From the NCBI GenBank assembly GCA_023213395.1, contig CM041465.1, positions 73,601,741 through 73,665,740 of the forward strand: a DNA stretch of 64,000 bases, in the 5' to 3' direction. The notes under the pieces are model-generated. The model saw only the letters and a program-made list of their open reading frames with translations, was not told where the DNA came from and made no database searches. A program made the translations under genes and the position numbers. Positions within the stretch are counted from its first letter, which is position 1. Every line of letters begins with the position of its first letter. Source of the stretch: Cycas panzhihuaensis. Taxonomy: Eukaryota; Plantae; Cycadophyta. Shown here piece after piece: positions 861 through 48,484 of the stretch.

Positions 861-1810
861 ATGATGAGGACAGCAGGGTGCCAAGAGGCCTACATTCCCA
901 AACTCAAACAGGACCTCCAAGCTCTACCAGCTGCATTTCAGGCTAAGGTGAAGCAGGCAGGCTGGAAAGACTATATTTATTGTAACCCTATGTATTATGA
1001 CCTGGAATTAATGGACCAAATCCTCATGGCCCTAAAAACAGACAGCAGTAAGGTCAAAATGGACACAGACATAGTCCATACCATCACTGGACTTCCCAAG
1101 GACGGAGAAGTTCCATTGGGAGCAAAAAGGTCAGAGGTAGACAGGGAAATGTGGCTGAGGGAATTATGCCAGCCTAACACCCAAATTATGTCAGGTGGAA
1201 TCAGGGTAGCTGACATTATGGACGACAGACTTGATGGGTGGCCAAAGTTATTAACCTGTGTTTTTGTCAAAGAGGAAGTATACGTACATCCAGGGAGGCA
1301 TGATGCAGGTCTTATTAAAAATCAGGGATGGAGAAAGAATGAATTGGTCAGAATTTTTGGCAGAGAATATGAAGCAACAGTTACAGGAAATCCGGACACA
1401 TCCATTCCGCCAACCTTCATTGCTTTTGGCAATGTTATTTTATCAGTGTCCGGAAGTTCAGTTGACCAGAACTACCATCTCTCCTTGGGAACCAATCATC
1501 AAACAGTGGGTAGCAGAGTTCCCGGATACAACAACGAGTATGGAAGCCAAACGGCGAGTTCAAAAGCAGATGCAGAAGGTGCTTACCTGGTTACAAAAAA
1601 CACCAGGAACACCTATCCCTCATCGGACGAAGCAAGTTGTTCATCTTCGTGGGAAGAGGAAGAAAGGGGAGGAGGAAACATAAGAAGAAGAGGAGGAAGA
1701 GGCAGAAGCATCCTGGGAAGAATGGGAGGACTTCCCAAGCCAGCAGAGGCCTGGAGAGCCCTCAAGACCTCCTACACCGCAGGATAAAGCGGACCGATCA
1801 TTCAGATGAT
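861..1810 (+). pseudogene. Extra 3' ORF of the gypsy element; PMD/putative plant transposon protein-like; one frameshift (~1250) and one internal stop (1681-1683)
   Basis: MDTDIVHTITGLPKDGE resembles the ITxxDVxxITGLPxxG motif. The ORF continues in the 1258-1683 frame with GERMNWSEFLAENM, then an acidic/proline-rich tail after the TAA. Confidence 0.55.
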
Positions 1811-13546: not shown

Positions 13547-16114
13547 AGACTGCCAATAAAGTGATTATCAAGAATAAGTTGTCTTTACCTGATGACTTTC
13601 TTGTTTGCAAGTTATACAACTATCATGCGAAGTAATTTCCCCAATGTGTTGTATGACCTTTCGATGCCTTTTCTTCGTTATTAACCAAGACCCCAAAACA
13701 TTCTTCTGGCATTGTTTTCCAACCAAGGTCTATGCTAACTCGATCATAAACTTGGCTTTCATGAGGCTCACATTCGTTTTTTTTCTTAAACAATTTTGGT
13801 GACAAAACACATGTTAGCTACAAAATGGCACATCAACTATCCCAAGGTTACCCATTTATTTCCTAGCCACATGGCAATATCAACTTGTCATGGCTGGCCT
13901 CTCAACATCAACTTGATAACTTGGTAGCTCTGTTCCTGCAAGTTAGGTTTCCATCTACTATGCAACACTAATAATCTGTGAGTAATGTAACATTTTCATT
14001 CATATACTTCATGCATACATTTCCACATAACTCATTATTGTATTAAATGATAATTGGAAAGTAATATAATAGAGGTTACCTACCTTGGGGATTGCTAGAC
14101 CCAACTCTCACACAAAATTAGGTGTGGAAATGCCCTAATTAAACCCTAGGTAGGTGCCTTTTCAGCCAAAAGACGTTGCTTTGCAATGGAGGTTTTGAAC
14201 TTACAATAATCACATGGTTAATCCATACAAAATCAATTGCTAGTGATGATTCATATCTCAGAACATTCATACTAATTTAGTGACCCAACTCCATTGTAGT
14301 AGTACCAAATTTCCCTAGGATGTTCCATAACTATCAAAGTTGTTTTGTTGTGTTGTTCCCTCTATGCTTGCCATTCCAAACCTATTAGAAGCATTCCATT
14401 CTTTCATATCATTCTCTATTGGCTATCAAAGTTGTTCTGATTAATAATGTCATTTTGCAAGTCATTTGCCAATTGTTACTGCCATTTCCCATATGCATGA
14501 CATTCCCTATTGCCATTCCCTACCATGAGACCCATCCTTAGTACTCAATTAGGTAGTTTCTCAATCGGTCATAACTTCTAGGTGTCATCTCATCTACATA
14601 CACAAACAAATGGCCAATATTATTTCAAGCTTATAACTTATATCCATTGCTTCATGGATGTCCCTGCATGTACAATTCTAGAAATTTTCTATTCAATAAC
14701 TTTGTAGACAACCTTTCCATGAAGAAACTTTGCATCTAATAATTTAGCACAGTTGCATTGCCTATCATGATGGTAGCGATGATTCTTATTTTACTTTCAT
14801 AGTTTAATACTTACTCTCTGGGATGTTGCATGATTTCTTTCGGTGCATAAATCATATATTGGTTATTACGCAATTGTTGAAACCTTGCCAAGAACTTTTC
14901 TCTCATATTTTCCCATGTCAGGTTATTAGTATCTAGATTTTGACACCATATGAGAGCAACACCATGTAATGTGCACAAGAGTTGACACTTAATGTACTCT
15001 TCTTTGTTGATCCCATAGATCACAATCATATTCTTAAAAGGAAAGAGGTGTTCACTTTGATCCCCTATTCCATTGAAGATTAGGTGACTCAAGACATTAT
15101 CATTTTGTTATGTCATAGTTGGCAAAATATTCACCTTCCTAGATGTCAAACCCGCTTTCAAATTACACTTTAATTCTCTTCAAGTTTTGAACAATGGGTT
15201 TGTATACAATGTTCTTGGGTAAATAAGCATACACCTTTTGGGTACTTGAACTACCAATGTAGTGACTATTAAGAATGAGTTATCTTCACCTGACAACTAT
15301 CTTGTTGGCAACTTATACAACTATCATGCGAACTAATTTTCCCAATTTATCATGTGACCTTGTGTTGCCTTTTCTTAGTTATTTCCCAAGCCCCAAGAAC
15401 CTTCTTCTAGCATTGTTTGCCAACCAGGTATTTTCTCCTCTTCTACTAGTGGCTCCTTGGAGTTTTATAGATGGGCTTCTTTTGCTTTAAGGGCGACTTC
15501 TAATGTCAGTGTACTATAGCCACTATTTGTTGGTGTGGCTTCCTTTTCTTCAATATTTTTAGGATTGTTGGTTAGCATTTCCATGGCTTCCCGTAATGAT
15601 GGCGTGATTCTCTTCAAGCAATGTTCCCTTCACTCTCTACCCCATGACATCACCCTCTCATGGCTAGTTGTTATTCTTCCCTTGTTTGGAGGCTTCTTCA
15701 GCATCATTAGAAGGTCCTCCAGCTACCTAGGGTCTAATTAGAACTTGCCATGGTGTCAACAACCAAGGTCTGTGCTAACTTGATCATAAACTTGGATTTC
15801 ATGAGACTTAGGTTCATTTTTTACTTCAGCAACTTTGGCAACAAAACCCATGTTAGCTATGAAATGGCACACTGACTATCCCAAGACTACCTATTTATTT
15901 CCTAGCCATGTGACAACATCAACTTGTCATGGTTGGCCTCTCAACAATAGCTTCAAGACTTGGTAGCTTGGTTCCTACAAGTTAGTTTTCCACCTACTAT
16001 GCAACACTAATAATCTTTCCACCTACTATGCAGCACTAATAATCTAAGAGTAATGTAACATTATTGTTCATGCATCTCATGCATACATTTCCAAATAACT
16101 TATTATTATATTAA
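13547..16114 (-). repeat. Tandem ~2 kb gag-only gypsy-like units: copy 1 ~13547-15255, copy 2 ~15256-16114 continuing at 30787-31400
   Basis: 13561.. aligns with 15262..; 14090.. aligns with 30804..; 14590-14690 aligns with 31310-31405. Copy 1 lacks ~340 bp between CAACCA(A)GG microhomologies. Confidence 0.85.
14150..15092 (-). pseudogene. gag: Ty3/gypsy-type gag (Retrotrans_gag-like capsid plus decayed zinc knuckle), no pol following
   Basis: FNGIGDQSEHL..TLHGVALIW..LTWENMREKFLARF, and a CDYCKFKTSIAKQR knuckle remnant at ~14170-14210. Confidence 0.8.
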
Positions 16115-16417
16115 TGTTAAAACATGGGTATCAAATCTTATGTATTAATTATCATTGAAAGGAGACAAAGACATATTTATATACTTAGATCTACCTCTAA
16201 CTCTTCCAACCAAAATTGACAACCGCTTCACCTACTAATTAGGCGTTACACATAAATATGTGCTTAAGCGCACTTAATAACTTGACACAACACTTCTATT
16301 GAACCTTTAATATTAACATTAATACTAACCTATAGACCATGACACAATACCCCTTAAGAACTACACATTAATGGCCCTTAGACATAATATTCTCCTAGAC
16401 ATATTAAACATTAACTC

Positions 16418-18483
16418 TTAGCACCCCCCCTTAATGTTTAATGTCAAGACAACAAAAAGACTGAATATTAAAGACATCATGACACTAAGTATTAAGGATT
16501 GATAAGCACTGACATATGACTTGACACAAGACATTGCTTTGAACGTGCAACACTTGAATTTTAGTATCTTCCTGAAGACAATGTCATGAGCTTTATCTTC
16601 GTCTTTAGGTGATTCTTGAATGCGACATTGATTCCTGATATGCTCTTTATTCCTGTGTAACATCTTCATTGAATCACTTGTTCCATCATCTCTCATTCTT
16701 TGGACTTTGAGTTGCCTCCAGTTAGTGGATGCAACTGTATCTGAGAGATCATATTTAATGTGCGATCCCTTTTGATGATTATTATCTCCAAGACATGATT
16801 TGAACTTCAAAATTTCCTTGAAGAAGAATAAAAAGGATTTCTCCGTATTTACTTCCAAATCAGCAAGTATGAGTTTTGTCACTATGATCATCTTCTTTAG
16901 GTATACTGCAGCTTTGAAAATAAACCAATAAAAGGTCTTTTGAAGAAGAAGGATGAATGATGATTTCTTCTCTGTTATCATGAGTACTAGTATTGATCCT
17001 GATTCAACCAAATTTTTGATTAACCATTTTATTTCCTTCTCACCATCCAAGGAAGCTATTGATACAGTGAACACAGAGGATTTCTGTCACAGTCACAAAT
17101 ACAAGTTTTCCAATAACTGTTATGGTCACATAAAGACAACATGCCACCATAACATGATTCAACTTCATAATTAAACAACCTATCAAAATCATATAACAAT
17201 TTGTGTAAACATATTATATTACAAGATTTTGGCCAAACAACATTCCAATTTCTACCAAAGTATCCTTCCTTTCTTCGAAAGAATTTTCTAATGTCTTTGC
17301 TGGATATGTCAACACAACCTGAACTCCTTCAAAGACAAGAATAGAAAATGTTGCACTATCAAATGAAACCATAAAGAATTCTGTGTACAGACGCATTACT
17401 GTGTGACCTGATATCAGTTGAAATTTAGCAACAATTCTGTCAACAAAAATTATGATAATATTACCCAAATTTTCCATTAAGACAATTGTGTCTCCATATT
17501 GTATTATTTGTGAAAAAGGTTGCCTGAAATCAACTTCAAATTTTTAATGCTTATAAGTTATTTCAAAGTTAAGATCCATCTTCTTTGTAACCTGTAATAC
17601 AGTCTTTTCTGTCAAAGCATTGTAACTCAAGATGTTAGAAGAAAATATAGGTGAGATAATTCTCTTCTTAGTCTTTAGTTTTTCATTTTCTTCTTCTTTC
17701 TCAGATTCTGAACAATGATCTACAGTCAAATTATTAGACTCATCTGTTACTTTATTAAATTCATCTGCAGGAATATGCAATAAGGATTCTTGAATTACTT
17801 TGTCACAATCACCATTATGTTTTTTTTCAATAGAGGACCTATTCTCAGAAATAGGTTTATATGCCTTTTCTCCTTTCTTATCACAAAAGACATTAGATGA
17901 ATCTATGTGAGATTTATTCTTACTAGAATCAACCTAGTTATTTGCATTCGCCTTTTCAGCTTTCCTCTTCAACCTTTTTTTTTTCTAATTCTTGGTTAGG
18001 TTGTTGTACATAATCTGCTCTAAGAGGAACTCTTCCTTCTACATCTTTTGTAAATTGTTCATCCTTTTTACCTGTATCACAAAAATTATTTGCCTTTTTA
18101 ACAATCTCTTGCACCTCTTCAAGGATATTTTCATACACATCCTTCAAGAGGTTCTAAGCTTCTTTAGCAGTTCCAACATCACGAATTGTAAGGATGAGAA
18201 AATGGTAGGGAGGCTGAAGCTCATCTTTATTTAATGTAGCAAGCATAACATCAATTATTATTTTATTCTTCTTCCTAAAGTTTTCTTCCCCTTCTACATC
18301 AATTAAAGCATTATAACCATTAGTGACGATTTTCCATAGCTTCTTGTACACAAATATACTTTCCATTTTAATTGTCCAATATTTGTGATTTGTTCCTATG
18401 TACTTAGGTAAAGGAAAAGGAAGGTTTGTTAAGTAGTATTCATTCTCTTCAAGTACAAAAACTATGATGCCACTTAACTCCAT
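16418..18483 (-). pseudogene. Disrupted Gag-N-terminus fusion protein of unknown function (element A)
   Basis: PKYIGTNHKYWTIKMESIFVYKKLWKIV is the copia Gag N-terminal motif. Downstream ORF pieces 17956-18147, 17544-17780, 17214-17477 and 16418-17074; the last two are homologous to B 47060-48097. Confidence 0.75.
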
Positions 18484-20214
18484 GATGTAAGAGCAAGTTG
18501 ATTAAGAGTGCATTGCACAAAATTCATGCATCCACTTCAAACTAAAATAACTCTATCAAATCAACAGCAAAATACTTCAAATTATATACCAAAATGACTG
18601 CCTCTGAAATACGGTTCAGTTGGTTTGCCAAACGGACTCCTAGATGCAAAGATATGAAGAAAAATGTACAAACACCCTTTTATGAAAAACAAATTGATGT
18701 CGTTAAAAGATTAGGCCCTTTAGCATATTAGCAAGAGGTCATATTGAAGCTGCATAAAACTAGGGGCTTAACTACTAAGGGGCTAGCAAACTTCAAACTA
18801 GATTTCAATTTTATTTATTCTAAATTTGACTTTGCCAAAAATATTAAATCTACCATATCCACATTGGCATCTGTGGATTTCAAGATACTATGCAATTGAA
18901 TTAAATCATGTTTATAACTTTGAAAAATATTTACCCTATTTCAAAATCAACCTGCAAAAACTTTTCTGACTGGCGATGAAAATTTACCAGATCAAAATTC
19001 TTTTGGGTTGATCGAAATCTCTCCTCTTGCATGAATCCGAGTGACTGTTCCTCGTCAAAAACTAGATTGAATCGATATAAATTGATTGAAATTGCTTATG
19101 AAATCATCTGCGTCATCATATCTAGCTTCATCTCTTATAGATTTTGCTAGGCTTCGATCAAATGCTCCTTCGCCATGGCTGCACACACTACAATTAAACG
19201 TCTGATTGGTGGGCCTTCTATTTCCTTCTTTGTAGTCAAATTTTAATAGATGTTATGCAGGCTTCTCATGATAGCCACAACATCTATTCTCCATTCATAT
19301 AGGATGCCTCAACACAAGGTTATTTCAAACTTATTACTGCTGCCATCCTTCAATCTTCTAAAACTGTGGGCTACTCTACGTTCAATGCGATCAATAGTAG
19401 GCTTGAAGTAAGGAGCAAACAACAGTCTCCAACAGCTTTAATTAGAAAAAATATTCAATTGTCAATCTATAGATTATTCTCATGATTGTCGTTGTAAGTG
19501 TTGTTGTCTTTGGTCAACCCGTCGATCAAAATTTTTTACTTCAACTGGATTCGAGCTTGTCATTTATCTACCGTCTTCCGTGGGGATTGACTATGATATG
19601 CAAACCCCTGGTCGTTCTTCACCCAAAAGCTCTACATCTGCATCTATATTTGCCTCTAATTACCCTACTTAGGCCTACTAGCTCGGGTCACCTCTCACAA
19701 CCAAACTTCACCTACATTTGAAAGCAATTTGCCCTCTCAATGGGCTTTGTACCATGGGTTGCCTCGTTGTCGTTTGACCTTAGTCTACTAGGGATTTGCA
19801 CTAACTTGATGACACAAGAGCTCAACTAGTAAAAGATTATTGCCAGGGGATTGACCCTAGTACTCTCGTCACAATTGCAACGATTTTGGCTAGCAAGAAA
19901 TTATTTGCTTGGATGTCTCTGTGATCTGCTCAACAATCGGTCTCATCTCACGTGTTTGCTAAGCCATTTGGCCTTTCATTTTTTTCTATGCCATGTCAAA
20001 AGAATTATCTCCAATGCTTTATTGATCATTTGCAGGTCTATAAATACAATTCAAAGTGTATAGGACAAATGGCAACCACTTAATGAGATTGTGCCACTTG
20101 TCACTCTGAAGGCGAAAGGGGGCAATGATACATGACCCTTACAAGGTACCTTAGATATCCTAGATAAAACATTGCCCTAAACAAAGCATTACCTTTTACA
20201 CCCCCTCTTAATGT

Positions 20215-23200
20215 TTTATCTGTTTTAGTCCTAAATCATTTCTAAAGCTAACAAACTTTTCCTTGCTAAGAGGTTTGGTAAGGACATCAACGATTTGATT
20301 TTCTAATGTACAATACAGAAACTCAACTTCTTTGTTCTATACTTTTTCCCTGATGAAATGGTGATGCACTTCTATATGCTCGGTTCTTGCATGCAGCACT
20401 AGATTCTTGGTCATTTTGATTGTACTTTATCATAGAATAACTGAGTAGGCATTGTTTGTTCTTGTCCAAGGTCCTTAAGGAGTTGTCTCATCCAAACTCC
20501 TTCACATGCTGCGTTGGCTGCTGACTTGTACTCTTCTTCTGTTGAAGACAAAGCAACTATATGTTGCTTTTTGTTGCTCTAGGAAATTAAGGTTGTTCCT
20601 AGAAAGAAACAATATCTCGATGTTGATTTTTTTTATGTTCTATCTCCAGCCTAGTCGAAATCATAAAAACTTGTTAGTTGCATATTGTTATCCTTTCTGT
20701 ATTCTAATCCAAGATACATGGTTCCTTTTAGATACCACAAAATTCTTCTTACAACATTCTAGTGAGGTACTTTGGGATCTTCCATAAACCTGGAAACTAC
20801 ACCAACTGCATAGGAAATATCTGGTCGTGTGGCTATGAGGTAAATTAGACTTCCGATTAGTTGTCTGTATAAAGTTGCATCAACCGGTTGTGCTTCTTAT
20901 TCAGTGTTTAACACACGTCCAGTTTCGATTGGAGTGGTAACACTATTGCAGCTTTCCATATTGAACTTGTTCAACAAGTTTTTGACATATTTTGATTGTG
21001 ATAAGATAACAAAGTCATTGTTTTGTCTTATTTCTATTCCCAGATAATAGTGCAACATTCTAAGATCTTTCATTTCAAATAGCATTTCGAATTGCTTCTT
21101 GATGAATGCAATCGGGTCTTCGTCATCTCCTATGATTAGCATGTCATCTACATATACCACTATGATGGAAGTTAGCCCTTGATTAAACTTCACATACAAA
21201 CTATGATTTGACTCACACTTGTGAAAGCCATTTTGAGTTAGATATGTGTCCAGTTTGGTATACCAAGCTCTTGGAGCTTGTTTGAGTCCATATAAAGCCT
21301 TACCAAATTTTCTTGTCCTTCAGGCTGATACATATATACTTCTTCTTGTAGATCTCCATTTAGAAAGGCACTTTTATCATCCATCTGATAAATCTTTTAT
21401 CCTTTCTGAGCAACAATTGCAATTACCATTCTTACAGTGTTCAACTTGGCTACTGGCGAGAACGTTTCTTCATAGTCAATTCTAGCAATTTGTATGTAGC
21501 CTTTTGCTACCAATCTTGCTTTGTAGTTCTCGATTTCACCATTTGGTTTTTCATTCACTTTATATACCCACTTGCAGTTTACAGTGGGTTTATCTTTAGG
21601 AGGAGTTACCAAATCCCATGTTTCGTTTTTATAAATGACTTTCATTTCCACATCCATTGCTGCTCTCCAAGCTTGAAAATTGCTTGCTTCTTTGGAAGTG
21701 TTTGGTTCAACAGAACACATTAAGGCTTGCGACTTCTAAGACCTCGTTCAATGCTCAAACACTTCTCCTCTTGTTTCTTCAATAGTTTTGAGATACCACT
21801 TTGGTACCCTTTTGGATATTTGTTCTTATGATGGTCTTCTTTCTTCACCTTCTAGATGGATGCTTGAATCACTGGCTCGTTGAGTATAAGACAGATGAGT
21901 ACTGAAATCACTTGCTTGTTGAGTATTAGATGATTTTTCATCTGAAATATTGTTTTCTGTTTCAATACTATCAGAAGTAATATCTGATTTATCTTATGGC
22001 TGAACTATTTCTGGGCTTTGATCACTGACATTTATTTCTTGATGAACAACTTCGGTGAGTCTTTTTCTTTCATCAAATATTATATTTCTGCTTACATAAA
22101 GTTTATTTGTCTTTGGATCAAGATAGCAGTATGCTTTTGAACAACTGCAATATCCAACCATTATACATTCTATGCTTTTGTTATCTAACTTGGTTCTTTT
22201 CTTATCAGGAATATGTACATACGCTTTGTAGCAAAAAATCCTAAGATGACTTACATTTGGCTTATGGCCTGTCCATGCCTCTTCAGGTGTTACTTCACCT
22301 AATGGTTGAGTTGGACTCCTGTTAATCAAGCACACAACTGTGTTTATAGCCTCTGCCCAGTGTTTCCTTGTGACTTCACTATCATTTAACATACATCGAG
22401 CCATTTCTACAATTGTTCTATTCATTCTCTCCGCTACCTCGTTTGATTGAGGTGTGTACAGAGTTGTGACTTGTCTGTGGATTCCATGCATTTTACAAAA
22501 ATAAAGAAATTCATTGGATACAAACTTACTGCCTCCATCTGAACAAACACATTTGATTTTCTTGCTGCTTTCCAGTTCCACTTCAGCTTTAAATTCTTTG
22601 AAATAACCGAATGTCTCTAATTTGCTAAACAAAAAATACACCCATGTTTTTCTGGAGAAATCATCAATGAAAGTTAAAAAATACCTTGCTCCATTTGTTG
22701 AAATTGGTGTAAATGGACCACACAAATCAATATGAACTAGATCTAGCTTACCTTGTACATGCCATGTGCTTTTTGAAAATGGAATCCTGTGTTGTTTCCC
22801 CATCATACAACTTTTGCATACAAATGAATTAAATGAAATATCAGGAAGACCATTCAGCATCTTTGATTTTTTTAGTTTTTCTAATCTATCATGGGAGATA
22901 TGACCATACTTCAAATGCCACATTTCATTAGTGTCATTGCTGGTCGTAGCAATTGAATTTACATCAGAAGGAGATTTCATGGGTCCTTTATCAGGCAGAA
23001 CATGGGTGGGAGAAGCTTATGAAGCCTATTACATTTTTCTTCTTTAGCTATTACAGCACCATTCTTTTCATGTCAAGAATGTAACAATGGTCGTTTTCAT
23101 CAAATATTGTTCGCAGTTTTTTTTCACTCAACTGAGACACTAACAGAAGATTTTTCTTCATTCCTAGTACAAAGAAAACATTGCATATTTGCTGAATTTT

Positions 23201-24348
23201 TCCATCAATTTTTATGGCAATTTGGCCTATTCCTTTTATATGCAAAGGAAAATTGTCTCCTAATTCCACAGATTTGTGAAGATCATATGGTTTGATGATT
23301 TCAAACCATTTTTTAATTCCTGTCATGTGATGCGAGGCTCCTAAATCAACATACCAATTTTTTGATGCACTAGTGCTTGCTGCTAACGTTACTATGAAGG
23401 CCGTTTCAACCTCTTCTTCTGTTGAATCTCATTCTCTGTTGTAATTTTCGGCCACTTGCTTCGCCTTTTGAATTTAGCTCGTCTCTGGTGACAATGGTAT
23501 GGATAGTGACATGTTTGTTTGCAATGGTAGTAGACGTCGAAAGACCTGCAACTACTCGAAAAATGGCCTGGTTTACCACAATTAAAACAAACTCTAGCAT
23601 CACGTGGTGGATTAGCAGTTGTTCTTCCTCGTCCTCTTCCTTCAATCTAGCGACCTCTGTAGCCAGCTGTTGCTCTTCCTCGCATTCTGAGATTATATTG
23701 ACCTCATCCTTGACCTCCCAAGTGAAGTTTGGTGACAAGTGCTTCTTCAACTTCTGCGTCTTCTTCATATCTCTGATTCCTTTGCTCTTGACTGAGCATG
23801 TGACCTGTAAGAACATCAAAGGTCATCATAGCAGTTTGCCCTCCTCCTGTCAACATATTTACCATTTTATCAAATGATTTTGGTAATTTGTTGAGCACAA
23901 GATGTATTAATTCAGTGTCAGTTATTTTGTCACTAGCTGTGAGAAGAGCAGTTTTGACGTTGGTCAACTTGGCTATGAAGTCAGATACAGTTTGGCCTTC
24001 TTTCATTCTAAGCTTATAGAGTTCCTCTTTGAGGGCAACAAGTTTGGCTTCGTTTTTCTGACTAAACATGGAAGACATTGTTTTCCAAATTTCATGAGCA
24101 CTCTCAACACCATCCACATAAACTAGCAAGGGATCAGAAATTGAATGTTTGAGCATAGATATAACAGTGTTATTCCTTTCTTCCTAATTCAACAAATCAA
24201 CTATATCGGAGGGTTGTTTTTCATCACCAGTGTTGATTTTACAGGCATGCTTTGCTCTTAAGAGACCCTCTATCTTAATTTTCCAAATAGTGAAATTCAT
24301 TTCAGTCAATTTGTCACCCTCAAGCAATGATCCAACAGAGGAGGCCAT
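20215..24348 (-). pseudogene. gag-pol: Copia gag-pol of C (Gag, zinc knuckles, protease, integrase, RT, RNase H), with multiple stops and frameshifts
   Basis: HIDLCGP..FIDDFSRKTW..YTPQSNEVAERMNRT, YKARLVAKGY, VYVDDMLI. The integrase-before-RT order is copia. Confidence 0.96.
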
Positions 24349-24912
24349 GACTAATCACAAGATTTGATTTCTAAGAGGAGAAACATGGTTGTACGGCTGT
24401 ACAGATGGTACTACGGATTTTCGTACGGAGCTCAAAGTGTATGTATGGAGAAAATAAGGGTGTCAATTGATAGATCTCAAAAATGGGTATTCGAATCTGG
24501 TGTTGTTTTTTTGAAACTCTCTCTAATCTGAGAGAAATGACACAAAGAATGTCTAAATCTACGCCCCTAGTTTTTTTGAAAAAATGATGAAAAAAACCCT
24601 TAAAACTAAAGAAAATCTCAGTAAGATGGGACTCAATCTCTTCGATTTACAGTGAGAGAGGGTTTAGATACTTAATACTCAGGATTCAAGCCAAATTTTT
24701 GAGAGATTTTGAAGAGGAAGACCTCTAAACCCGCGTGCCTAGAAAACTGGCCAAAAGTCCTTCGAGATGGCTTCAAATCCGTCGGTTCTTGAAGGAAAAA
24801 ATGTCGAGGAGACTCAGATCTATAATCTGGGTAAGTTTCATAAGATTTTGACAACTTTGATTTTTTGACGTCCGTACAATTCCATATTTTGCACATATTC
24901 TAATCCGTACAC

Positions 24913-27900
24913 TATTAAGATATAATGTTTTATCTAGGTATGAAAGGGGGTCATGTTAAGACCACCCTCAATATAGTCATAGTGTAAGATGATGCCACTT
25001 GGCAGTATCAGAGTGATTGGTTACATTAGAGATTGTAACCATCACATTGTTGATGTATACTTAAGAAGGTTGAATCTCAATGTAAAATACACTTCTTCTC
25101 TATTTAATTCAGACCAGTCTTTGCTCTGTTTTTTCATCATGGTATCAGAGCAGGTCAGCCCAAACTGATCTTTTTTGAAAACTTTCTCCTGTCTAGAAGT
25201 TCCATCAAGGATAGAAGAAGCAGACAAGGCAGTTAGGATATCTGCTTCATCATTGCTCTAACGTCCGGAATCGTACGGACCTGTACGGATGAGTTTTTTT
25301 CAAAAGTTTCAGATCGCAACGAAATTTGGTGGGGAGGTAGATCGAAGCACGCTGAGTACATTTCTCTTCTGGAGTCGAGTCATCTAAGGTCATTTTCAAG
25401 GCCAAATTGAGCCCAAACTAGTCCGCGCGTTTTTGGAGGATTCATCTCAAAAATCTTCACGATTTTCTCAGAATATCCGGTATTTCCAGTCAAAAACCCT
25501 TCTTAGTATCAATACATTGAATTTGCATCCATATTCGAAGATTTATTTCGAGTTTTTCCCAGTGATTTTTCAAAAAATCGATTTTCTGCCCTACCCGCCG
25601 TTTTTCCTTCCAGAGCAGTTTTCTCTCTTTTGAGAAACGTTTTTTGAAAAACCGACTTCAGATCCACATAGGCGACTGAAAAACCTCGATTTTGAGGTAT
25701 TTTCTTGTTTAGGCCGTACACCTAGGGTTCCAGACGGAAACTGCAGACAAATTGCATTTTGTGCTCTAAACTCTGTCTTTTGACTTGAAGAAAATGTCTT
25801 CATCCCTCATTTCTCTGCCTGATCCAGAAAAATTAACTGGTTCCAACTATCATGTGTGGAAAATCAAGTTAGACACCATTTTGAGGGTGAAAAATGCCCG
25901 AAATTCTCAAGGGATGTAAAAACATCCTCCAGTTGGTGATGACAAGCTAGGAAGTTGGATTGAAAGAAATAATATGGCCAGTCTCACATTGAAAATGTCA
26001 ATTTCAGATTTAGTTTTAGTCTATGTGGAAAAATTGAATCTGGCATCTGAAATATGGAAATGCTTGGAAAACTTATATGGACAAAAGAATAAGGTAAGGA
26101 TAATTGCACTCAAAGAAGAACTGTACAAGCTTCACATGAAAGAAAATGAAGAGGTAGAGGATTTTATGCATAAAATTATTATTGTCAGAAATAATCTCTT
26201 AAGTGCTGGAGGTTTAATTTCTGAACAAGACCTGGTAGAAATTGTAACTGCAAGGTTACCAAAGTCATTTGACACAATTGTCAATACTATCACGCATGTG
26301 ATAGGTTAGACAAGTTAACTCTTGATGAATTGATAGGATTGTTGCTTAGACAAGAACAGAGAAACAAAAGGTATGAAAATACGACAGAATTGGAGGATGC
26401 ATTTGCGTCCAGACTGAATCTCGGGCCAAGAGGGAGACAACAATTTCGAGGACAAAGCAGAACAGTAGACTTCCGGGGACGAGGACGCTGGCAAAGTTCC
26501 AGAGGGCGAGGACGGAGCAGAGAAAATAGGGTCTGTTACAACTGTGGAAGAACCGGACACTTCGCCAGCAGTTGCAGAATCTTTGATATTTGCTACTATT
26601 GCGGACAAAGTGGACACTATCCATATCAATGTCCACAAAGACGAAGTGAAATTCAGAAAGGAAAGCGACCCATTGGAGGCTACAGCAAAGAGAAGGACGA
26701 AGAGGAGGAGGAAGAAGAGACAGCTTTCATCACAGCATTAGTTATCGGTATGAAAGACAAAGACATATGGTACATAGACTCAGGAGCTTCCAAACATATG
26801 ACAAGTCGGGAAGAATGGTTTGAAACCATGAAACCCTATAGTATGGACAAATCAGTAGAACTGGGCGACAAGTATTCCCTTAATATAAAAGGGATTGGAA
26901 CTATCTCAGTAAATCTGGATGGGAATCAAAAACGAATTGGAAATGTTCTATTTGTACCAGATCTAAAAATGAATCTCCTCTCTGTTTCTCAATTAAGCAA
27001 AAAAGGGTTGAGAACCGTTTTCGATGAAGAAGGGAATTGTCATATTCTAGACATGAAGAGAGGTGGGAAAATTGTTGCAAAAGGAATCAGATGTAATGAT
27101 CTTTACAAACTCTTGTCAGATCCTGTACTTCCTTATCTGGAAGAAAAAGCTTGTACTGCTTCTAAATCTAATAATAAAGCTTGGCATTTGAGGTATAGGC
27201 ATCTCTCAATTGATACACTTAAACAAATGGAAAAATCAGGAATGGTTAATGGTCTACCTAATATTTCATTAGATAAATTTGTTTGTAAAGGTTGTCAACT
27301 CAGAAAACAGCATAGACTTCCTTTTAAAGAAAGCGTTTGGAGAGCTCTGCACAAATTTAGAATTGATACATACAGATATTTGTGGTCCAATTACACCTCT
27401 CACAATTAATGGATGCAGATATTTTTTAACTTTCATTGATGATTTCACTCGGAAAGTATGGGTATATTTTCTGCATAATAAATCAGAAGTTTTTGAAACA
27501 TTTAAAGAATTCAAAGCGGAAGCAGAGCTAGAATCAGGAATGAAAATCAAATGCATCAGATCAGATGGAGGAGGGGAATATATATCAAAGGAGTTTTTAA
27601 ATTACTGCAATGATCGAGGGATTCGTAGACAGATTACAACTCCTTATACCCCTCAGTCAAATGTAGTGGCCGAAAGAAAGAATAGAACTCTGATGGAAAT
27701 GGCTCGAAACATGATGTATGGACCCAAAATATCAAAAACATATTGAGCAGAAGCAGTCAGTACAACATGCTACCTGATAAACAGAAGTCCAACAAAAGTA
27801 TTAAAGGATATCACTCCAGAAGAAGCTTGGACAGGATAAAAACCTGATGTAAGTCTTCTCAAAATTTTTGGCAGCCAAGCATTTGTACATATTCCTGATA

Positions 27901-30125
27901 AAAGAAGGTTCAAATTGGATGCAAAAAGCATAGAATGCATTTTAATAGGCTACAGTAAAAATTCAAAGGCCTACAAATGCATAGATCCAAAAACTAATAA
28001 AATTTATGTAAGTAGAGATGTTGTTTTTAACGAAGAAAATTCTGTTGAATCCTCACAAATTAGAATAATAGAAGATGAGAAGGAAAATGAATAGGAAGCT
28101 GTCAGACACGAAGGGATGCAAGAAGATGAGCAAGAAAATAAGTCAGAAATTACCTCAGAAAATCAAGAAGCTGAAGAAAGAAGTGATTCGAAAATCACTT
28201 TAGAAGAAGGACAAGCAGATCCATCATCAACCAATTAAGTACCAGAAGACGTGATCGAGAAAGAAGACCCACGAAAACAGAAAAAGCTACCAAAATGGTA
28301 CATTAAAACAGTTGAAGAAGGAAGTGTAATAGAACAGAAAACACGGGGACAAAGGTCAAGAGCCCTTCTAAGCAAAGTCGAACCACAGAACTTTCAAGAA
28401 GCAAAAGATCATCAAGAATGGAAAGCAGCAATGGACAATGAAATGAACTCAATCAAGAAGAATCAAACGTGGGAGTTAGTAGAACTACCTGCCAATAAAT
28501 CCAATCAGAACCGCAAATGGGTTTACAAAACAAAAAGGGGAATGGATGACAAAATAGAAAAATACAAGGCAAGGTTAGTTGCAAAAGGGTACACTCAAAT
28601 AGCAAGAGTAGATTTTGATGAGACTTTCTCTCCAGTAGCAAAAATGAATACAATAAGAACAGTAATTGCCTTGGCTGTAGCACAAGACTAGAAAATCTCA
28701 CAGCTAGATGTAAAAAGCGCCTTCTTGAACGGTGAGCTGGAAGAAGTAGTCTATATGCAACAACCAGAAGGATCTCACGAGCAGGTGAGAATCTGGTTTG
28801 CAAGTTAAAAAAGGCTCTGTATGGTCTAAAACAAGCTCCACGCGCCTGGTATGCCAAATTAGATCATTTTCTTGAAGAAAATAAGTTTGCTCGGTGCAAC
28901 TCCGACTCCAGTCTCTACATAAGAAAAACAAACAAGAAGATAACAATAATTGTTGTCTATGTAGATGATATGCTCCTCACTAGAGATGATGAAGAAGGAA
29001 TTAAGTGGATCAAAAGTCAACTGCAGCAAATATTTGAAATGACAGACTTGGGGATTCTAAATTACTACTTGGGACTGGAGGTAGGTCAGCATCAAAACTA
29101 CATAACCTTGTCCCAAAGTAACTACATCAAAAGTCTGCTTGTTCGATTTCAAATGGAGAATTGCAATCCATGCACAACACCCATGAAAACAAACTGTGAC
29201 TTAACAGCAGATAGTATAGAAAAGGATGTAGATGTCACACTGTACAGACAAATGATTGGAAGTCCAATTTATTTAACAACCACCAGGCCCGACATATTCT
29301 ACTCAGTAGGACTAATATACATGCAAAATCCAAAGTTGAGACATTGGCAAGCTGCAAAAAGAGTCTTAAGGTACCTCAAAGGAACAACAGATTTCAAGTT
29401 AGTATACTTGAAAGGGTATCCAAATGAAATATCCGGCATCATGACTGATCAAGGTGTGACAAAGAATAAAGGAAATCCACTAGTGGATATTGTTTCTTCT
29501 TAGGAGCCTCAGTAATCTCATGGTGTAGTAAGAAATGCACTACGAGCTCTCTCTCTCTGAGCGGAATACAAAGCAGCTACGTTAGCAACCTGTGAAGTTG
29601 TATGGTTAAGGCAACTTCTGTTCGACTTGGATCAATAGCAAAAAGGAGCAACCTCCTTGAAATGTGACAATCAAAGTGCCATCAAGCTGACCAAAAATCC
29701 AGTTCTACATGTAAGGACAAAGCACATTGAAGTTCATCATCATTTCATAAGAGAAAAAGTACGTAATAAAGAGAGACTTGGAATATTGCCCCTCAGCGGA
29801 ACAAGTTGCAGATCGTCTGACAAAACCTCTTGGAAGAGAAAGACTCAAATATTTAAGAGACAAAATTAGATTATTAGAGATAAAACATTAAGAGGGGGTG
29901 TTAAGATATAATGTTTTATCTAGGTATGAAAGGGGGTCATGTTAAGACCACCCTCAATATAGTCATAGTGTAAGATGATGCCACTTGGCAGTATCAGATT
30001 GATTGGTTACATTAAAGGTTGTAACCATCACATTGTTGATGTATACTTAAGAAGGTTGAATCTCAATGTAAAATACACTTCTTCTCTGTTTAATTCAGAC
30101 CAGTCTTTGCTCTGTTTTTTCATCA
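24913..30125 (+). mobile_element. Element D: full-length decayed Ty1/copia, 227-bp LTRs (24913-25139, 29899-30125), TSD TACAC; inserted in the leader of C
   Basis: LTRs differ at ~5 positions. PBS TGGTATCAGAGC at 25140-25151, PPT AAGAGGGGG at 29890-29898. TSD at 24908-24912 and 30126-30130. Confidence 0.98.
25794..29880 (+). pseudogene. gag-pol: Copia gag-pol of D
   Basis: CYNCGRTGHFASSC and CYYCGQSGHYPYQC knuckles, WYIDSGASKHM protease, HTDICGP integrase, YKARLVAKGY and [15 protein letters not shown] RNase H. Confidence 0.97.
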
Positions 30126-33100
30126 TACACAAATGACAAAGCTTTGTCTGAGACTTGTGCTTGATGAATATCTTGATTCTCTTCAACTGGCTTGACCCCA
30201 TGCTTCTCTTGGTTTCTAGAAACCTAATTCTTTCACAGGCAGGGGGACTCAACAGCCTGCTCTGATACCATGTCAAAAGAATTCTTTCCAATGATTTATT
30301 GATCATTTGCAAGTCTATAAATACAATTCAAAGTGTACGGGATAAATGGCAACCGCTTAATGAGATTGTGCCACTTGTCACTCTGAAGGTAAAAGGGGGC
30401 AATGATTCATGACCCTTACAAGGTACCTTAGATATCCTAGATAAAACATTACCCTAGACAAAGCATCACCTTTTACATGCCACTCTCGATGTTTGGTCCG
30501 TGAGGCACCAAAAATTAGTGCATCAAAAATGTTGTTGCTCTTCTTCTTGTTGACCCCAATTGCAAGTTCCCTTCTATTCTTGGTCTACGCCTTCGTCCTT
30601 ACTAGTCTCATCCTTTCTCCCTTTTATTTCTGTGTTCTTTCTTTCACACTACATCCTACTTAGGAACCTGCTCAGATACCATGTTAAAACATGGGTATCA
30701 AATCTTTCGTATTAATTATCATTGAAAGGAGACAAGTGCATATTTATACTTAGATCTACCTCTAACTCCTCCAACCAAAATTGACATCCATAATTTTCTT
30801 AGTGATTGCTAGACTCAACTCTCACACAAAATTAAGTGTGGGAATGCCCTAATTAAACCCAAAGTAGGTGCCTTTTCATCCAAAAGACACTACTTTATAG
30901 TGGGACTTTTGACCTTATAATAATCACATGATTAATCCATACAAAATCAACTACTAGTGATGTTTCATATCTCAGCATATTCATATGAATTTAGTGACTC
31001 AAGTCCATTGTAGTTGTGTCGAATTTCCCTGTGGTGTTCCATAATTGTTGAAGTCATTCCATTATGGTGTTCCATCCATGCATGATGGTCCTAACCTATA
31101 AGAACCATCCCATTCTTCCATATTGTTCTCTACTAATTGTCAGAGTTGTTCCAATTGGTAACATCATTTTGCATGTCATTTCTTGATTGTTGCTACCATT
31201 CCCATTGTGTATGACATTCCCTACTACCATTCCCCACTATTAGATCCATTTCTAGTACTAAATTGTGTGGTTTCTCCATTGTTCATGGCTTCTAAGTGTC
31301 ATCTTGGTTGTATACATAAACAAATGGCCAATATTATTTCAATCTTATAACTTACATCTATTGCTTCATGGATGTCCCTATATGTACAATTTTAGAAATT
31401 TTATATTTGACCTAAATTTTGGAAAATATAATTCATTGCTTAGTACTGAAAGAATCTCTCATTATGTACCCTTGTTTTTCCAAACTTGTTAACATGTTCA
31501 TTGTAGCCTATCACTAAGTATTCATCATTCATATCCTTTTACCCTTTAAGCATTATATCTTAACAACTTATGACAATATATTCAACATTCATACATTCCT
31601 ACTCTTAAATAGTAAATCTTTGACACCATAAGAAATAAATAGCAACTTTGGTTTCCATTTTTTCTAGACCAAGATTATTACAAAAAATCCATATAGGAAG
31701 GAATAAGCAAACACATGATTTAATTGATAGGGAGCATGCACCACAAGATATAAGATTAAGATATGGCACTTACAAGTGAAACCTCAGTGCCTTTATGTAA
31801 CATCTTTTCTTCATTGAAACAACGTGTAAAGTCACGTAACTGCAACATAAACATTTTCAAATTAGTCCTCTCAATTATTACATTGAATAGAACAACCTTT
31901 GCAACAACAATATGGACTCGATATTGATAGGAGAATGCAAGTGCAACATTTCATGAGTATAAATTACTTTTATAAGTGCATTTGTGAGTCTTTTGTAATA
32001 ATTCTTACAGCATCTTTGCCTGGACCACTCTTTAGCCCGCCTTGAGCCTTACGGACACGCGGCAACAATGATCGATCAAAGCCCTACTTTCAAAACACTA
32101 GTCAATTAAAAAAGAAATGATATATATTTAATACAATGATAAGAATGAAAGGGCTTAGTTAAGCATTCCAAGAGTCACTTTTTGTTCAAATAATCCATTG
32201 AAATTAATTCCATACTACTTCAAATAATGAGGGTAATTTACACACAGAGTGAATATCTCATTACAACAATCCAATGAATCAAAAACAAGCCCAAACAACT
32301 TACAAATTGAAAGGGGGCTATAGGAGGAAAATAGATGGATATCATTGTAGACTCAAGAAGAGCCCTTGCAATATGCTCTTTTCTCACTAGTTTAAGGAAA
32401 AGGGAGCAATTAACAAACTTTAGTCAAATCCAAAGAGGAAAACATCAATAATAGTAATAATCTAAAAATAATAAAAATGAGTTTCATTATATGCAGATAT
32501 TATGGCATGGAAAGCAAGAATAGTTGAGACAACCCACAAGAATGGTCTCAGTGTAGACAAGAATGGCCATAGAATGACCAAGACAACATAGAGGAATGAC
32601 CTCAACATAGATAAAACAACCATGGATTAGCCTACATAGGAACTATTGAGTAGACCAGACCAACCCATAGTGGAATAGCCTACATAGGAATAACACACAC
32701 AAAGAGAAGAACGATTGAAGATGAAGGGATCAAATAGGCATCATACACTCCAGTATGACTAACAAACAATGAGTACATTGATTGTAAGCATGGCTAACTA
32801 CATTAAAATGTATGACTAATGATTGGTCATGAAGAGTCAAATGTGAATGGTGTTGGCCGTTGTGTAAAACCAAATTTTTAATACATTAAATATGGCATTA
32901 TCGCATCAAGTTTGATGTGAGAGCCAAGTAACCTGAAATAGTTATAGCATAATTAAAGTATAATATTCTAGGCAAAATCTAATGAAACAATGAGTTATGC
33001 GGAATATGTGACTATGAACAGGCGATTATATGAATGTTTATTATACTTGAAAGCATGCTAGAAAAGGGCTTACATAAAGAAATGGTCATTGTCACACCTC

Positions 33101-44114: not shown

Positions 44115-47100
44115 TGTTAGAATATAATATTTAATGTTGTGTGAGTCTTAGGGTCAATAGTCTCAAGTATTAGAGGGTAAGAGTCATTTGTCATTATAAC
44201 ATTATTGGTTAAGGTAGTAGTGTAATGTCATTAGTTAGAGTAAAGGTAATAGTCCCACATGCATTAGATCTATAGTGTGGTCTCCCACCTACTTAGTATA
44301 TACAAGTGGTTGAGGTGGTACATGACATACAAGTTATCATGGAGATTCATATAGAGTCCCTGGTATAGTTGGTGTTCTGATGTAATCTGTTGATGCTAAG
44401 TTAATTCATTGTGGTCCTTGTCCATTGATATTGATGGGTGTTTGTTGATGAATGCTTTCCATGTTATTCTTAACATGGTATCAAAGCAGATTGGTTGTTG
44501 AAGCTATTGTTATGCAGGTCCGCCATCTCTTTGATAAGAGAGGAACACAACTCCGTTAGATTGGCTGCCAGATTGAAGAGTTGAATTAAGGAAGTGAAGT
44601 TCCAGCCCTTCCTGCTAAAGAAGAAGGTCAAGTGTGGAGGTGGCTCCGTCTGGCGCCAGTTGTGATTACACTTGAAGAAGGTGAAACCCTAACAACATCA
44701 GAATATTATCGGGTAATACTGTTCACCTTTTGGCTTTATCTTATAAAGAAGTTGGTATACAGTTAAACTTACTGAGGTGAATTTATTGGAAGCTGAGGTC
44801 TGCATGCATGGAGAAGTAATGACCTTGATTGATGATGATAGTATCCATGAAAACACCTGATTATGGTTTGTATTTAGAACAGTTGAAAGGACTTTGTTAA
44901 ATACCTTGAGTTTTTTGGAGAAAACCTACCTTAAATAGAGTTTGCATGTAGTTACCGAACTCTGGAAATCTGTGTGTGAGCCACCAATTAAGAAATCATC
45001 AGTCAGACCAGCCAGGTGTGAGTAATCTACAGGATATCCACCCAAGTGGCCACGAAGAAATGCCCACTAGTGTGATGACAGTGAACATGGAAATGTGAAG
45101 ACAGGGATGTGTAGGTACATAGCGATCAAGGAAATCAAGAATACCAAGTGCTGATCATTCAGGGCCAACACTGTAATCTGCTTGGAGTCACAATAATTGG
45201 CAATGGTATCTGTGTTCTTCATTCTCCCTCTATTTCCGCCTCTTCCGAAAAAAAAATGATGGTATTATTACTTGTGGGCGTTGGTTTGGACTAATAAGAG
45301 GTCAGAGGCAATGTGTAGTTCCATTCCCAAGCGTGTCGAATCAAGCCAAAACTGAATTTGTTTTGGAATTAACATAGCTGACTACCTGAGTACTCATGGA
45401 ATGAATGACAGCCCTGACAGAATTACAAACAACAGTCTGATTCAACTGTTCTAAGCCACTGTACACTTTCGTTTACAGGCAGAGGGGCAAATATCAGAGC
45501 TAAGAACACATAATGTGAAGGATTCTCCCCTTGACAAAGATTTCTTGCCAGAACTATTGCTGTGCCTTTGTTGTTATTGTATGTGACATTTTGACTTGCA
45601 CAGTACCTGTCTGACTTTGATATGGTTGAGAGGCAACACAGTAGTATTGATCAATAATAATGGAAATGATATGCTTTGCATAAGCAGACACACCCTGCCT
45701 TGTCTTGATTTTGACTCTGTTACTTGTGTTATAAATATCCACATCGTCATCAAGGCTCATGCTGAGTCTTTGGTATCCTTGTTAATATTTGTGTACTCTT
45801 CACGATGACGCAGACAGTGCATGATCTCCAGTAATGCTAATATTTCTTAAGGGCAGATTCAAGTGGAGATACCAATCTGTTCGGAGTGCATAGATTTGAA
45901 TAGGCGGACAAGCGTAATAGCAAAGTTGATCTGTGAGCAGCGGGAGAGAATGGAATGCAGTGACCAGCTTTTGTTGAGGAGAAAGACCATTCCCTGGTAT
46001 TACTAGAGTTACTCTTAGACAACTTCCTCCTTCTGGAAGGGGTGTAGTTTCATAAATGATGGAATAAGAAGATGCAGGGCCTCTGATCTTCACGGTTTAG
46101 CTCTGTGCAATTTTAAACCTTTTTAATGTGGTGGTTGTTGGTTGATGAGAGAAATAGATCCCCTTGGACTAGTGTATGACTGCTATATTTGAAACGAGAT
46201 CTCTCCATATGGAACAGCTGGAGGTAATCTTGGAGGTCTAGGTGAAATACCAGTGAGTAGAACAACTGGTAGTGTTCTGTCTTGTTTTCGATGATTCTAT
46301 AGGCCAAACGTTGGGAATTAGAAGTTTGTTGATAGTCTTCCAACAGACTGTATACAGAGAAACTCTCGTTGCAGCAGAATAGATCCAAGCAAGGTGTAAT
46401 ACTTTTAGTAAGACAGGACCAAAGCGTCATTAGTCTTGGAAGGAGGCACTCACTCAACAAAAAAAAAGGGGGACCATCGAGAAGGTAAGTGCCATGCAAT
46501 ACCAATTCAGAGTGAAGGAAAAATAACATGTTTTTTCTGTGTTATTTGTAATCTATGAACAGTGGTAAAGAACAAATGAATGAGCAGGTTGCTGCTAACT
46601 GACAAGGTACTTGAATTGCTGTTGTTAAATGCTCCAAAAGTTGCTGAAACACTATCCATAAATTCTGAGAGTTATAGTTGTGATTGATTTATTCACACAT
46701 CATGGAGTTAAGTGACGTCATAGTTTTTATACCTGAAAAAAAAGAATATTGGCTATCAGATCTCCCTTTTCCTCTGCCCAAATATATTGGAACTAATTTT
46801 CGTTTTTGGAGAATCAAGATGGAGAGCATATTCGTGCTAAAGAAACTTTGGAAAACAGTTATGGGTACTGAAATGGCTCATGAATAAGGGGAGGAAACCT
46901 TCAAAACGAAAACCAGAATTGTCATTGACGTAATACTTGCAGCCTTTGATGAGGGTAACCTTCCTTCTTCCTATCACTTCATTGTCCAGGTTCTACAAAA
47001 TACCGACTTAGGCGGGACGCCTTGAAACCGGCGAAGTGCATGAAAAAGGACCTGAATAAGTGCAGCGGAGTATCAAAAGGGCAAAGAATCAAAGGAAGAA

Positions 47101-48484
47101 GTTGAAGAGGAAAGAAAAAAGGGAAAAGCAGAATGACAAAGTCTTAACTCCATCAAATACCCCAAGTCTTATCAAAGAACCGGCTTTGGAGGTTGAAAAT
47201 TCCAAATATCAATCTTTACCGGCAATAGTCCATGGAAACACAAGTAGCTTAACAAAAGGTATGGACAATATCATCCTGGTTTGTATCAACAAATTTACGA
47301 CTAGGATTCAAATGGCGTCAGGATACACATTGATATGCATGTGGTGGAGACTTTCCATAATATCTCTCAATTCAACCTCTATGTTCATCTTTGAGAGAAT
47401 CCAAATTATGACAGCATATCTTACAAGGTCACTAGAAGGTTCTTCCAAAGAAAGAAGAAACATAGGAAGAATATCATATAATCGAAACCTTGTGCATCAA
47501 GATCATTGCAAGTTTTTGATAGGCTTCTTGACCTTGAAGCCCAATCATATCAAAGTAATGTTTCACATTTGTGTAGCAGTAACAGGGAAATACATGCATA
47601 TGACCATAATGAAGGCTCTCATCATTCTTGGCATAACGGATTCCCTGGATAACATAAGAGGAACAAAGTATCTTGTTTTTGAACAAGGGAAATTCAGAAA
47701 TGGATCCTTATTGCTCATTCCCTTTCAAGGTAGTGATCAATGGATTGTAAAGTCAGTCATTTTAGTAGGTTTGGAAATAGACAAGGAGAAGTCAATTTAC
47801 TTCATATTCATTCCAGGACATCCATACCTCTCCCAGAAGTACACAGGAAGATTCATCAAACAGGAAACAGAACATAGCATAGCAAACAAGACATACACGT
47901 TTTGCAGTACATTAGATGAAGACAAAGCTCAAGACATCATCATCAGAAAGATTCCAAGACTCAAGAGATGGAAGTTCAAGCATCACTTCAAAGACAAGCC
48001 AAGTCAAGTCCTATGTCAGTTTTGTCATGTTTCTATAGTTTCAAACTCAAGTCAAGTCCTATGTCAATGTGTGTCAGTCATGTCAAATTGTTCTTAGTTC
48101 AAACATTAAACATTAAGGGGAGGTGTTATAATATAATATTTAATGTTGTGTGAGTCTTAGGGTCAATAGTATCAAGTATTAGAGGGTAAGAGTCATTTGT
48201 CATTATAACATTATTGGTTAAGTTAGTAATGTAATGTCACTAGTTAGAGTAAAGGTAATAGTCCCACATGCATTAGATCTATAGTGTGATCTCCCACCTA
48301 CTTAGCATATAAAAGTGGTTGAGGTGGTATATGACATACAAGTTATCATGGAGACTCATATAGAGTCCCTGATATAGTTGGTGTTCTGATGTAATCTATT
48401 GATGTTAAGTTAATTCATTGTGGTCCTTGTCCATTGATATTGATGGGTGTTTGTTGATGAATGCTTTCCATGTTATTCTTAACA
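44115..48484 (+). mobile_element. Element B: complete pol-less copia-derived LTR element, 361-bp LTRs (44115-44475, 48124-48484), TSD TAGGC
   Basis: LTRs differ at ~13 positions. PBS at 44476-44487, PPT AAGGGGAGG at 48115-48123. TSD at 44110-44114 and 48485-48489. Confidence 0.97.
46702..48120 (+). pseudogene. Gag-N-terminus fusion protein of unknown function (element B), lightly disrupted
   Basis: MELSDVIVF..LPFPLPKYIGTNFRFWRIKMESIF, followed by the 345-aa ORF 47060-48097 homologous to A. Confidence 0.78.

What the first reader, a model, noticed from the sequence alone, without database searches (positions are those of the whole stretch)
16418..18483. Pol-less copia-derived family encoding a conserved, unrecognised Gag-fusion protein (copy A)
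Seen: A and B have different LTRs, yet both encode a copia Gag N-terminus, a charged linker and several hundred residues unlike normal Gag or Pol, ending at the PPT. Homology shows conservative substitutions: GNIIIIFVDRIVAKFQLISGHTV vs DNIILVCINKFTTRIQMASGYTL; FEGVQVVLTYPAKTLENSFEERK vs FERIQIMTAYLTRSLEGSSKERR; IVTKLILADLEVNTEKSFLFFF vs IVKSVILVGLEIDKEKSIYFIF; DEDKAHDIVFRKI vs DEDKAQDIIIRKI. A third copy is suggested at 5666. Known: gag-only non-autonomous elements (TR-GAG) exist. Inference: the replacement domain is under protein-level selection and might act as a capsid parasite or a dominant-negative factor. Weak echoes of gypsy integrase (VVVDR) and RT-thumb (GLxINxEKS) motifs may be coincidental.
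Basis: partly seen in the sequence, partly recalled or inferred. Interest (0 to 1): 0.78.

Follow-up and report, generated by a model that had tools for sequence, protein, structure and literature searches.

The report
Pol-less retrotransposon with eroded Gag fusion
Two broken copies of a multi-copy plant jumping gene that has no recognisable copying enzymes share one long reading frame, a capsid-protein start joined to an unrecognised fast-changing tail that is likely a worn-down piece of the lost enzymes, which makes this a new variant of a known kind of hitch-hiking element.

Summary
The homology is real. A and B are 4.4-kb LTR elements with unrelated LTRs, tRNA-Met-type primer sites and the same purine tract. 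Both carry a copia Gag N-terminus (about the first third of Gag), a lysine-rich linker and a hydrophobic tail of about 300 residues. Four further relatives turned up in the same frame, and hundreds of diverged contigs per run cover the tail in four organisms. Selection is strong on the Gag part (omega about 0.15). On the tail the frame is clearly maintained (345 stop-free codons in B; 7 of 8 indels in threes), but amino-acid constraint is weak (omega about 0.4-0.45, borderline against neutral simulations). No family, structure or fold matches the tail. The best lead is a colinear echo of copia integrase (z about 2, not significant after five comparisons); gypsy integrase and RT echoes fail. 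Corrections: copy A is a pseudogene whose 5' end lies at 30682-30789, beyond a nested 10.5-kb insertion, and no third copy at 5666 is detectable. Pol-less Gag-plus-unknown-domain elements are already described (TR-GAG, RLG_Quinta). Verdict: new variant of a known kind; interest 0.4.

The parts
16115..16423 (-). Copy A 3' LTR (309 bp, TG...CA)
   Evidence: 92% identical over 110 bases to 30682-30789
16424..16440 (-). Copy A polypurine tract, near-identical to that of B and of two full-length copia neighbours
16418..17543 (-). Copy A hydrophobic tail, broken (stops at 17214 and 17040, at least one frameshift between 17040 and 16900)
17544..18153 (-). Copy A charged, lysine-rich linker, broken (frameshift near 17980, stops at 17934 and 17544)
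18154..18483 (-). Copy A copia Gag N-terminal part (about 110 codons, ends in a stop)
   Evidence: omega 0.14-0.16 against B
18484..19993 (-). Copy A leader, 3' part; no similarity to B's leader
19994..30476 (.). Nested insertion into A's leader: a full-length copia (minus strand, target-site duplication TGCCA) that itself holds a second full-length copia (about 24915-30126, plus strand)
30482..30681 (-). Copy A primer-binding site (tRNA-Met type, recalled label) and start of leader
30682..30789 (-). Copy A 5' LTR remnant (outer part missing)
   Evidence: both flanks of A match the element-free paralogue at 13861-14586
44115..44475 (+). Copy B 5' LTR (361 bp), preceded by target-site duplication TAGGC
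44476..46701 (+). Copy B primer-binding site and 2.2-kb leader without codon periodicity
46702..47059 (+). Copy B Gag N-terminal part, broken (three stops, one frameshift near 47030)
47060..48097 (+). Copy B linker and tail: 345 codons without a stop
48124..48484 (+). Copy B 3' LTR, 96% identical to the 5' LTR, followed by TAGGC

Best explanation
A and B are dead copies of a multi-copy, Pol-less copia-type element that is likely copied and inserted by the enzymes of full-length copia elements, and whose one reading frame likely makes a shortened Gag protein with a weakly constrained tail that is probably an eroded remnant of the lost enzyme gene. Shown: LTRs, primer site and purine tract nearly identical to those of two full-length neighbours; no recognisable protease, integrase, RT or RNase H; strong purifying selection on the first 100 codons; a frame kept open over about one substitution per site. 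Inferred: the Gag N-terminal part, lacking a recognisable C-terminal capsid half and zinc knuckle, cannot build a particle alone and co-assembles with helper Gag, while the basic linker holds the element's own RNA and so favours its packaging. Weakly inferred: the tail descends from the integrase region, has no enzyme activity, and is held only to stay in frame and roughly hydrophobic.
For: Shared cis signals. omega 0.14-0.16 for the Gag start and 0.37-0.46 for the tail. No 345-codon open stretch in 2000 composition-matched sequences; neutral drift of 0.25-0.5 per site gives 9-14 stops, none stop-free in 600 runs each. 7 of 8 frame-blind indels in the tail core are multiples of three (p 0.003), 12 of 19 over the whole frame (p 0.007). 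Codon periodicity in both tails, none in B's leader. Four relatives open for 170-289 codons in the same frame. Of five retroelement domains tried, only copia integrase scores above shuffles (z 2.1, 8 of 200; A alone 2.7), and the profile alignment is colinear over 129-160 columns from the first catalytic-Asp motif past the ERK motif (motif roles recalled).
Against: The integrase link is not significant: 15 of 150 shuffles, z 1.1-1.6, z about 0 with composition correction, absent for B (z -0.4); seven of the ten integrases were fetched by a pattern that holds the ERK motif, which favours the match. No expression, protein or particle data. Tail constraint is borderline. Lack of the C-terminal capsid half rests on a four-sequence profile. 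The protein relatives come from a library that holds only open frames.
Confidence: 0.5

Rival explanations
1. The tail is an acquired or newly shaped folded domain with its own job, for example standing in for the missing capsid half or steering the fusion protein into helper particles.
For: No match in Pfam, solved structures or 1.84 billion representatives beyond four relatives. omega below 1; second codon positions are best kept (0.61 against 0.53); B-private changes 1 silent to 9 replacing against 14 to 16 among shared variants (p 0.04). Precedent: RLG_Quinta GAG plus DUF1 and the Sabrina variants.
Against: Constraint is about three times weaker than on Gag; large in-frame indels are tolerated; replacement changes are no more conservative than neutral (p 0.32); the faint integrase echo offers a simpler origin.
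Confidence: 0.25
2. Only the Gag start matters as protein. The tail is kept free of stops and frameshifts because an early stop would harm the RNA or its packaging, and its amino acids drift almost freely.
For: The frame evidence is strong while the amino-acid evidence is borderline; first and third codon positions diverge equally (0.53 and 0.53); neutral simulations with the same method give a median omega of 0.73-0.79.
Against: Three separate signals lean towards constraint; T at second positions is enriched (0.35-0.45); a 3' deletion would remove the need for a long frame (inference).
Confidence: 0.17
3. The protein is a dominant-negative restriction factor that poisons helper particles, like Ty1 p22.
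For: A truncated Gag under purifying selection; Ty1 precedent (search listing).
Against: [quoted passage not shown]
Confidence: 0.05
4. Neutral debris of a deleted copia with no selection anywhere.
For: Both copies are broken; divergence is transition-rich.
Against: omega 0.15 on Gag, frame-keeping indels and the 345-codon open stretch.
Confidence: 0.03

Closest known systems
TR-GAG elements (Chaparro et al. 2015, PMC4350172; abstract and passages read)
   Same: LTR, PBS and PPT; one ORF with copia-type Gag; no Pol domains; TR-GAG1's 433-aa ORF also ends in a part with only faint Pol (protease) similarity.
   Different: Here 4.4 kb (their limit is 4 kb); no UBN2 or zinc-knuckle hit; only the first third of Gag is recognisable; a 1.7-2.2-kb leader and a tail of about 300 residues.
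RLG_Quinta of einkorn wheat (PMC11302176; passages read)
   Same: Non-autonomous element whose ORF holds GAG plus a domain of unknown function, sharing PBS and termini with an autonomous partner; two diverged lineages.
   Different: Quinta is gypsy, centromeric, with clear GAG homology and LTRs shared with its partner; here copia-type, truncated Gag, A and B LTRs unrelated, partner not identified.
RLG_Sabrina variants and Pol-less Athila (PMC9744471, PMC2410132; passages read)
   Same: High-copy Pol-less elements with gag or replacement ORFs; purifying selection on gag shown for Athila (omega about 0.2-0.4).
   Different: Both gypsy; Sabrina replacements take the place of gag rather than being fused to its start.
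Non-autonomous families with decayed Pol fragments in sugar beet (PMC13570524; passages read)
   Same: Gag with partly decayed Pol remnants in non-autonomous families.
   Different: Those remnants are still detectable by profile; here the putative remnant is below significance yet kept in frame.

Membership tests
TR-GAG | LTRs with PBS and PPT | tested here: met
TR-GAG | Length under 4 kb | tested here: not met
   B is 4370 bp; A's internal part is about 3.77 kb plus 309-bp LTRs
TR-GAG | Single ORF with a Gag capsid domain (UBN2 or Retrotrans_gag) | tested here: inconclusive
   No UBN2 hit; DUF4219 below cut-off; local copia Gag profile matched over positions 7-91 of 255 only
TR-GAG | No similarity to protease, integrase, RT or RNase H | tested here: met
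   No Pfam hit; six-frame profile searches, best E 0.075; only a sub-threshold integrase echo
TR-GAG | At least two copies | tested here: met
   396-567 contigs per run laid on 481 bases of B in 4 of 4 runs, most under 95% alike
Ty1/copia superfamily | RT phylogeny and integrase-before-RT order | not testable with these tools
   The element has no recognisable RT
Ty1/copia superfamily | Copia-type Gag N-terminus and 5-bp target-site duplication | tested here: met
   (TSD seen for B; lost in A with the outer 5' LTR)
Quinta-like semi-autonomous partner | PBS and LTR termini shared with an autonomous partner | tested here: inconclusive
   PBS differs from two full-length neighbours by one base in 14-15 and the purine tract is near-identical, but such signals are common among copia elements (recalled); LTR bodies do not match
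Quinta-like semi-autonomous partner | Intact, expressed Gag supplied to particles | not testable with these tools
   Both window copies are broken; no RNA or protein data

The most novel reading that the evidence does not exclude
A widespread satellite-like retroelement has replaced the C-terminal half of its capsid protein and all of Pol with a folded domain reshaped beyond recognition from dead integrase, and uses this fusion to board helper particles and bias them towards its own RNA.
Probability: 0.2. Interest if true: 0.7.

Novelty: new variant of a known kind. Interest (0 to 1): 0.4.

Why it matters
Elements like this escape domain-based annotation yet can be abundant. If the tail is eroded integrase kept in frame, the family is a natural record of an enzyme turning into unrecognisable protein, and it suggests where the unknown domains of Pol-less elements such as Quinta DUF1 may come from. 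If the tail has its own function, it is a new way for a non-autonomous element to enter helper particles. If only the frame is selected, it shows that a long conserved ORF in a transposon need not mean a conserved protein.

Tried and rejected
No whole genome is held, so copies could not be collected. Word-index protein searches found no relative of B's frame (0 of 1254 candidates) or of A's Gag start (0 of 67 longer proteins); both metagenome scans were blank, as were two viral-contig scans for copia integrase. P0005, the fifth hit, is a repetitive insect protein and was dropped. My first idea, tail = protease plus pre-integrase plus RNase H end, failed (86 and 43 of 200 shuffles). Gypsy integrase, copia RT, copia Gag and shifted or antisense frames failed. 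Transition-tolerant DNA alignment to 13 Pol-bearing sequences gave no consistent hit (best tail z 3.1 in a different register, 1 of 78 comparisons). Two AlphaFold2 models had mean pLDDT 36 and 32; the fold search on the second gave nothing at E 0.001 and is uninformative. Atlas hits were all under 0.8. No RNA holder listed; one run guessed to be RNA covers the frame but shows nothing about expression. No Rfam or tRNA hit in the window. No Pfam family in 31 leader frames. The K2P value for B's LTRs included flank bases and is not used.

Full report
Setting. The window is about 36% GC and consists mostly of nested LTR retrotransposons. No assembly is held. An earlier AI note calls the host a gymnosperm; I did not test this.

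Anatomy of copy B. B spans 44115-48484, with 361-bp LTRs 96% identical, a TAGGC target-site duplication, a primer site at 44476, a 2.2-kb leader, a Gag-like start at 46702 and a purine tract before the 3' LTR. Its first 120 codons hold three stops and a frameshift; then 345 codons run without a stop (47060-48097).

Anatomy of copy A. The finding's coordinates cover only the coding part. The 3' LTR is 16115-16423 (minus strand). The primer site and a 108-base remnant of the 5' LTR lie at 30668-30789, because a full-length copia (19994-30476, duplication TGCCA), itself holding a second one, has inserted into A's leader. Both flanks of A match an element-free paralogue at 13861-14586 (85% and 79%), which confirms the bounds. 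Without the insertion A's internal part is about 3.77 kb, against 3.65 kb in B. A's frame has five stops and at least two frameshifts. A's and B's LTRs and leaders do not match by blastn, but their primer sites and purine tracts are nearly those of the two nested full-length elements.

Is the homology real? Yes. The four quoted peptide pairs are colinear, DNA identity over the tail is 53-61% by codon position, and the score is five times that of codon shuffles. A search of 1.84 billion representatives gave 5 hits; 4 are relatives of 170-289 residues at 35-68% identity in the same frame, each a single unnamed sequence, and 1 is spurious. P0004 is 72% identical to A and runs on where A has two stops. 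Twenty of 21 listed runs, from 12 studies, hold part of B's coding stretch; in the four runs laid on 481 bases of the tail, from four organism labels, 396-567 contigs fit, most under 95% alike. The family is therefore multi-copy and diverged. The third copy at 5666 is not detectable by protein profile or DNA; that stretch is the 3' end of some element, with a purine tract at about 6250.

What is recognisable. The first 110 codons are a copia Gag start, matching positions 7-91 of a 255-position profile of four neighbouring Gags; nothing matches the rest, including the zinc knuckle. A lysine-rich linker of variable length follows, then a tail 33-43% I, L, V, F, M, C with only moderate hydrophobic peaks. 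Pfam, solved structures, the Atlas and two low-confidence folds give nothing.

Selection. Pairwise GY94 fits give omega 0.14-0.16 for 100 Gag codons (p < 1e-7) and 0.38-0.46 for 212 tail codons (p 0.0005-0.004 against 1). The alignment was protein-guided, which lowers omega: neutral simulations of the 147-codon core gave medians of 0.79 and 0.73, reaching the observed 0.45 in 3 of 60 and 5 of 60 runs. In a frame-blind alignment identity is 0.53, 0.61 and 0.53 at the three codon positions (p 0.09). Among 40 of 50 variant sites shown for the family, the 30 shared ones are 14 silent and 16 replacing against 10 silent expected (p 0.08), the 10 near-private to B are 1 and 9, none makes a stop (1.6 expected), and replacements are not unusually conservative (contrast p 0.04; the 0.8 split was my choice). 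The frame evidence is stronger: no 345-codon open stretch in 2000 matched sequences; 9-14 stops expected after neutral drift of 0.25-0.5 per site, against about one from B's own age; 7 of 8 gaps in the tail core and 12 of 19 overall are multiples of three (the core bounds were chosen after seeing the alignment); no indel reaches 20% among relatives. So the frame is maintained and the tail's residues are at most weakly held.

Origin of the tail. Protease, RNase H, RT, gypsy integrase and shifted or antisense frames all sit at chance. Copia integrase is the only lead: A scored z 3.9 and P0004 z 3.2-3.5 against window integrases (3 of 30 pairs, and the two queries are close kin), profile alignments are colinear over 129-160 columns, and the family sum is z 2.1 (8 of 200). 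Against this, profile tests give p 0.08-0.14 or nothing after composition correction, B shows no signal, only 12 of 50 pairs fall in the same register, and 7 of 10 integrases were selected by the motif in question. I put an integrase origin at about even odds; it is not shown.

Mechanism. Shown: cis signals of a copia element, no detectable enzymes, many copies, a constrained Gag start, a kept frame. It follows from the known life cycle that RT and integrase must come in trans. Inferred: the partial Gag joins helper particles and the basic linker carries the element's RNA with it; the tail is a passenger under loose structural constraint. Rivals are a tail with its own function (0.25), selection on the frame alone (0.17), a p22-like inhibitor (0.05) and neutral debris (0.03).

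What is known. TR-GAG (PMC4350172; abstract and passages), RLG_Quinta with GAG plus DUF1 (PMC11302176; passages), Sabrina variants (PMC9744471; passages), Pol-less Athila with gag under purifying selection (PMC2410132; passages) and beet families with decayed Pol (PMC13570524; passages) cover the general design; REXdb notes many heterogeneous extra ORFs (PMC6317226; passages). Ty1 p22 was seen in a search listing only (PMC4599808). Seven paper searches listed no description of this family; I read no supplements, and repeat libraries in them could hold it. The element works like a TR-GAG or Quinta but fails TR-GAG's size limit and lacks its Gag domain hits, so I do not file it as a member.

Verdict. 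A real, apparently undescribed family; the distinctive points are the truncated copia Gag and a long tail kept in frame while its sequence erodes. New variant of a known kind, interest 0.4.

Noticed in passing
window 45962-46221: In B's leader, contigs of one run guessed to be RNA match short stretches and then run on as unrelated sequence for 190-255 letters, as expected if the leader holds captured host-gene scraps. A's and B's leaders share nothing.
   Followed up: partly
window 19994-30476: Three-layer nest: copia inside copia inside copy A; LTR pairs differ by about 1.8% (inner) and 7.5% (outer). These neighbours have two tandem zinc-knuckle-like motifs in Gag.
   Followed up: partly
window 13549-14586, 15250-16114 and 30798-31300: A local duplication, 79-87% identical; copy A sits in the second unit and has lost its outer 5' LTR with about 30 flank bases.
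   Followed up: yes
window 4553-4919 and about 8480-8877: Two further LTR-like stretches 66-69% similar to B's LTR; the second is followed by a primer site and a start similar to B's leader, but no family ORF was found behind it.
   Followed up: partly
window 43966-44109 and 48490-49700: B sits inside the gag gene of another copia element; runs X1 and X4 hold the joined, element-free form, possibly from other copies of that host element.
   Followed up: partly
window 33911-34127: Tandem array of a 31-base unit, about seven copies, starting ATTGCAAT.
   Followed up: no
window 777-1787: A 336-codon open frame in a more GC-rich stretch, ending in an acidic and Arg/Gly-rich run; not examined.
   Followed up: no
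L001-L007: Seven short contigs filed in bacterial genome records carry copia integrase frames and look like eukaryote contamination.
   Followed up: no
window 47198-47700 against 17000-17543: The fitted transition/transversion ratio in the tail core is about 9, against 4 in the Gag part; unexplained.
   Followed up: no
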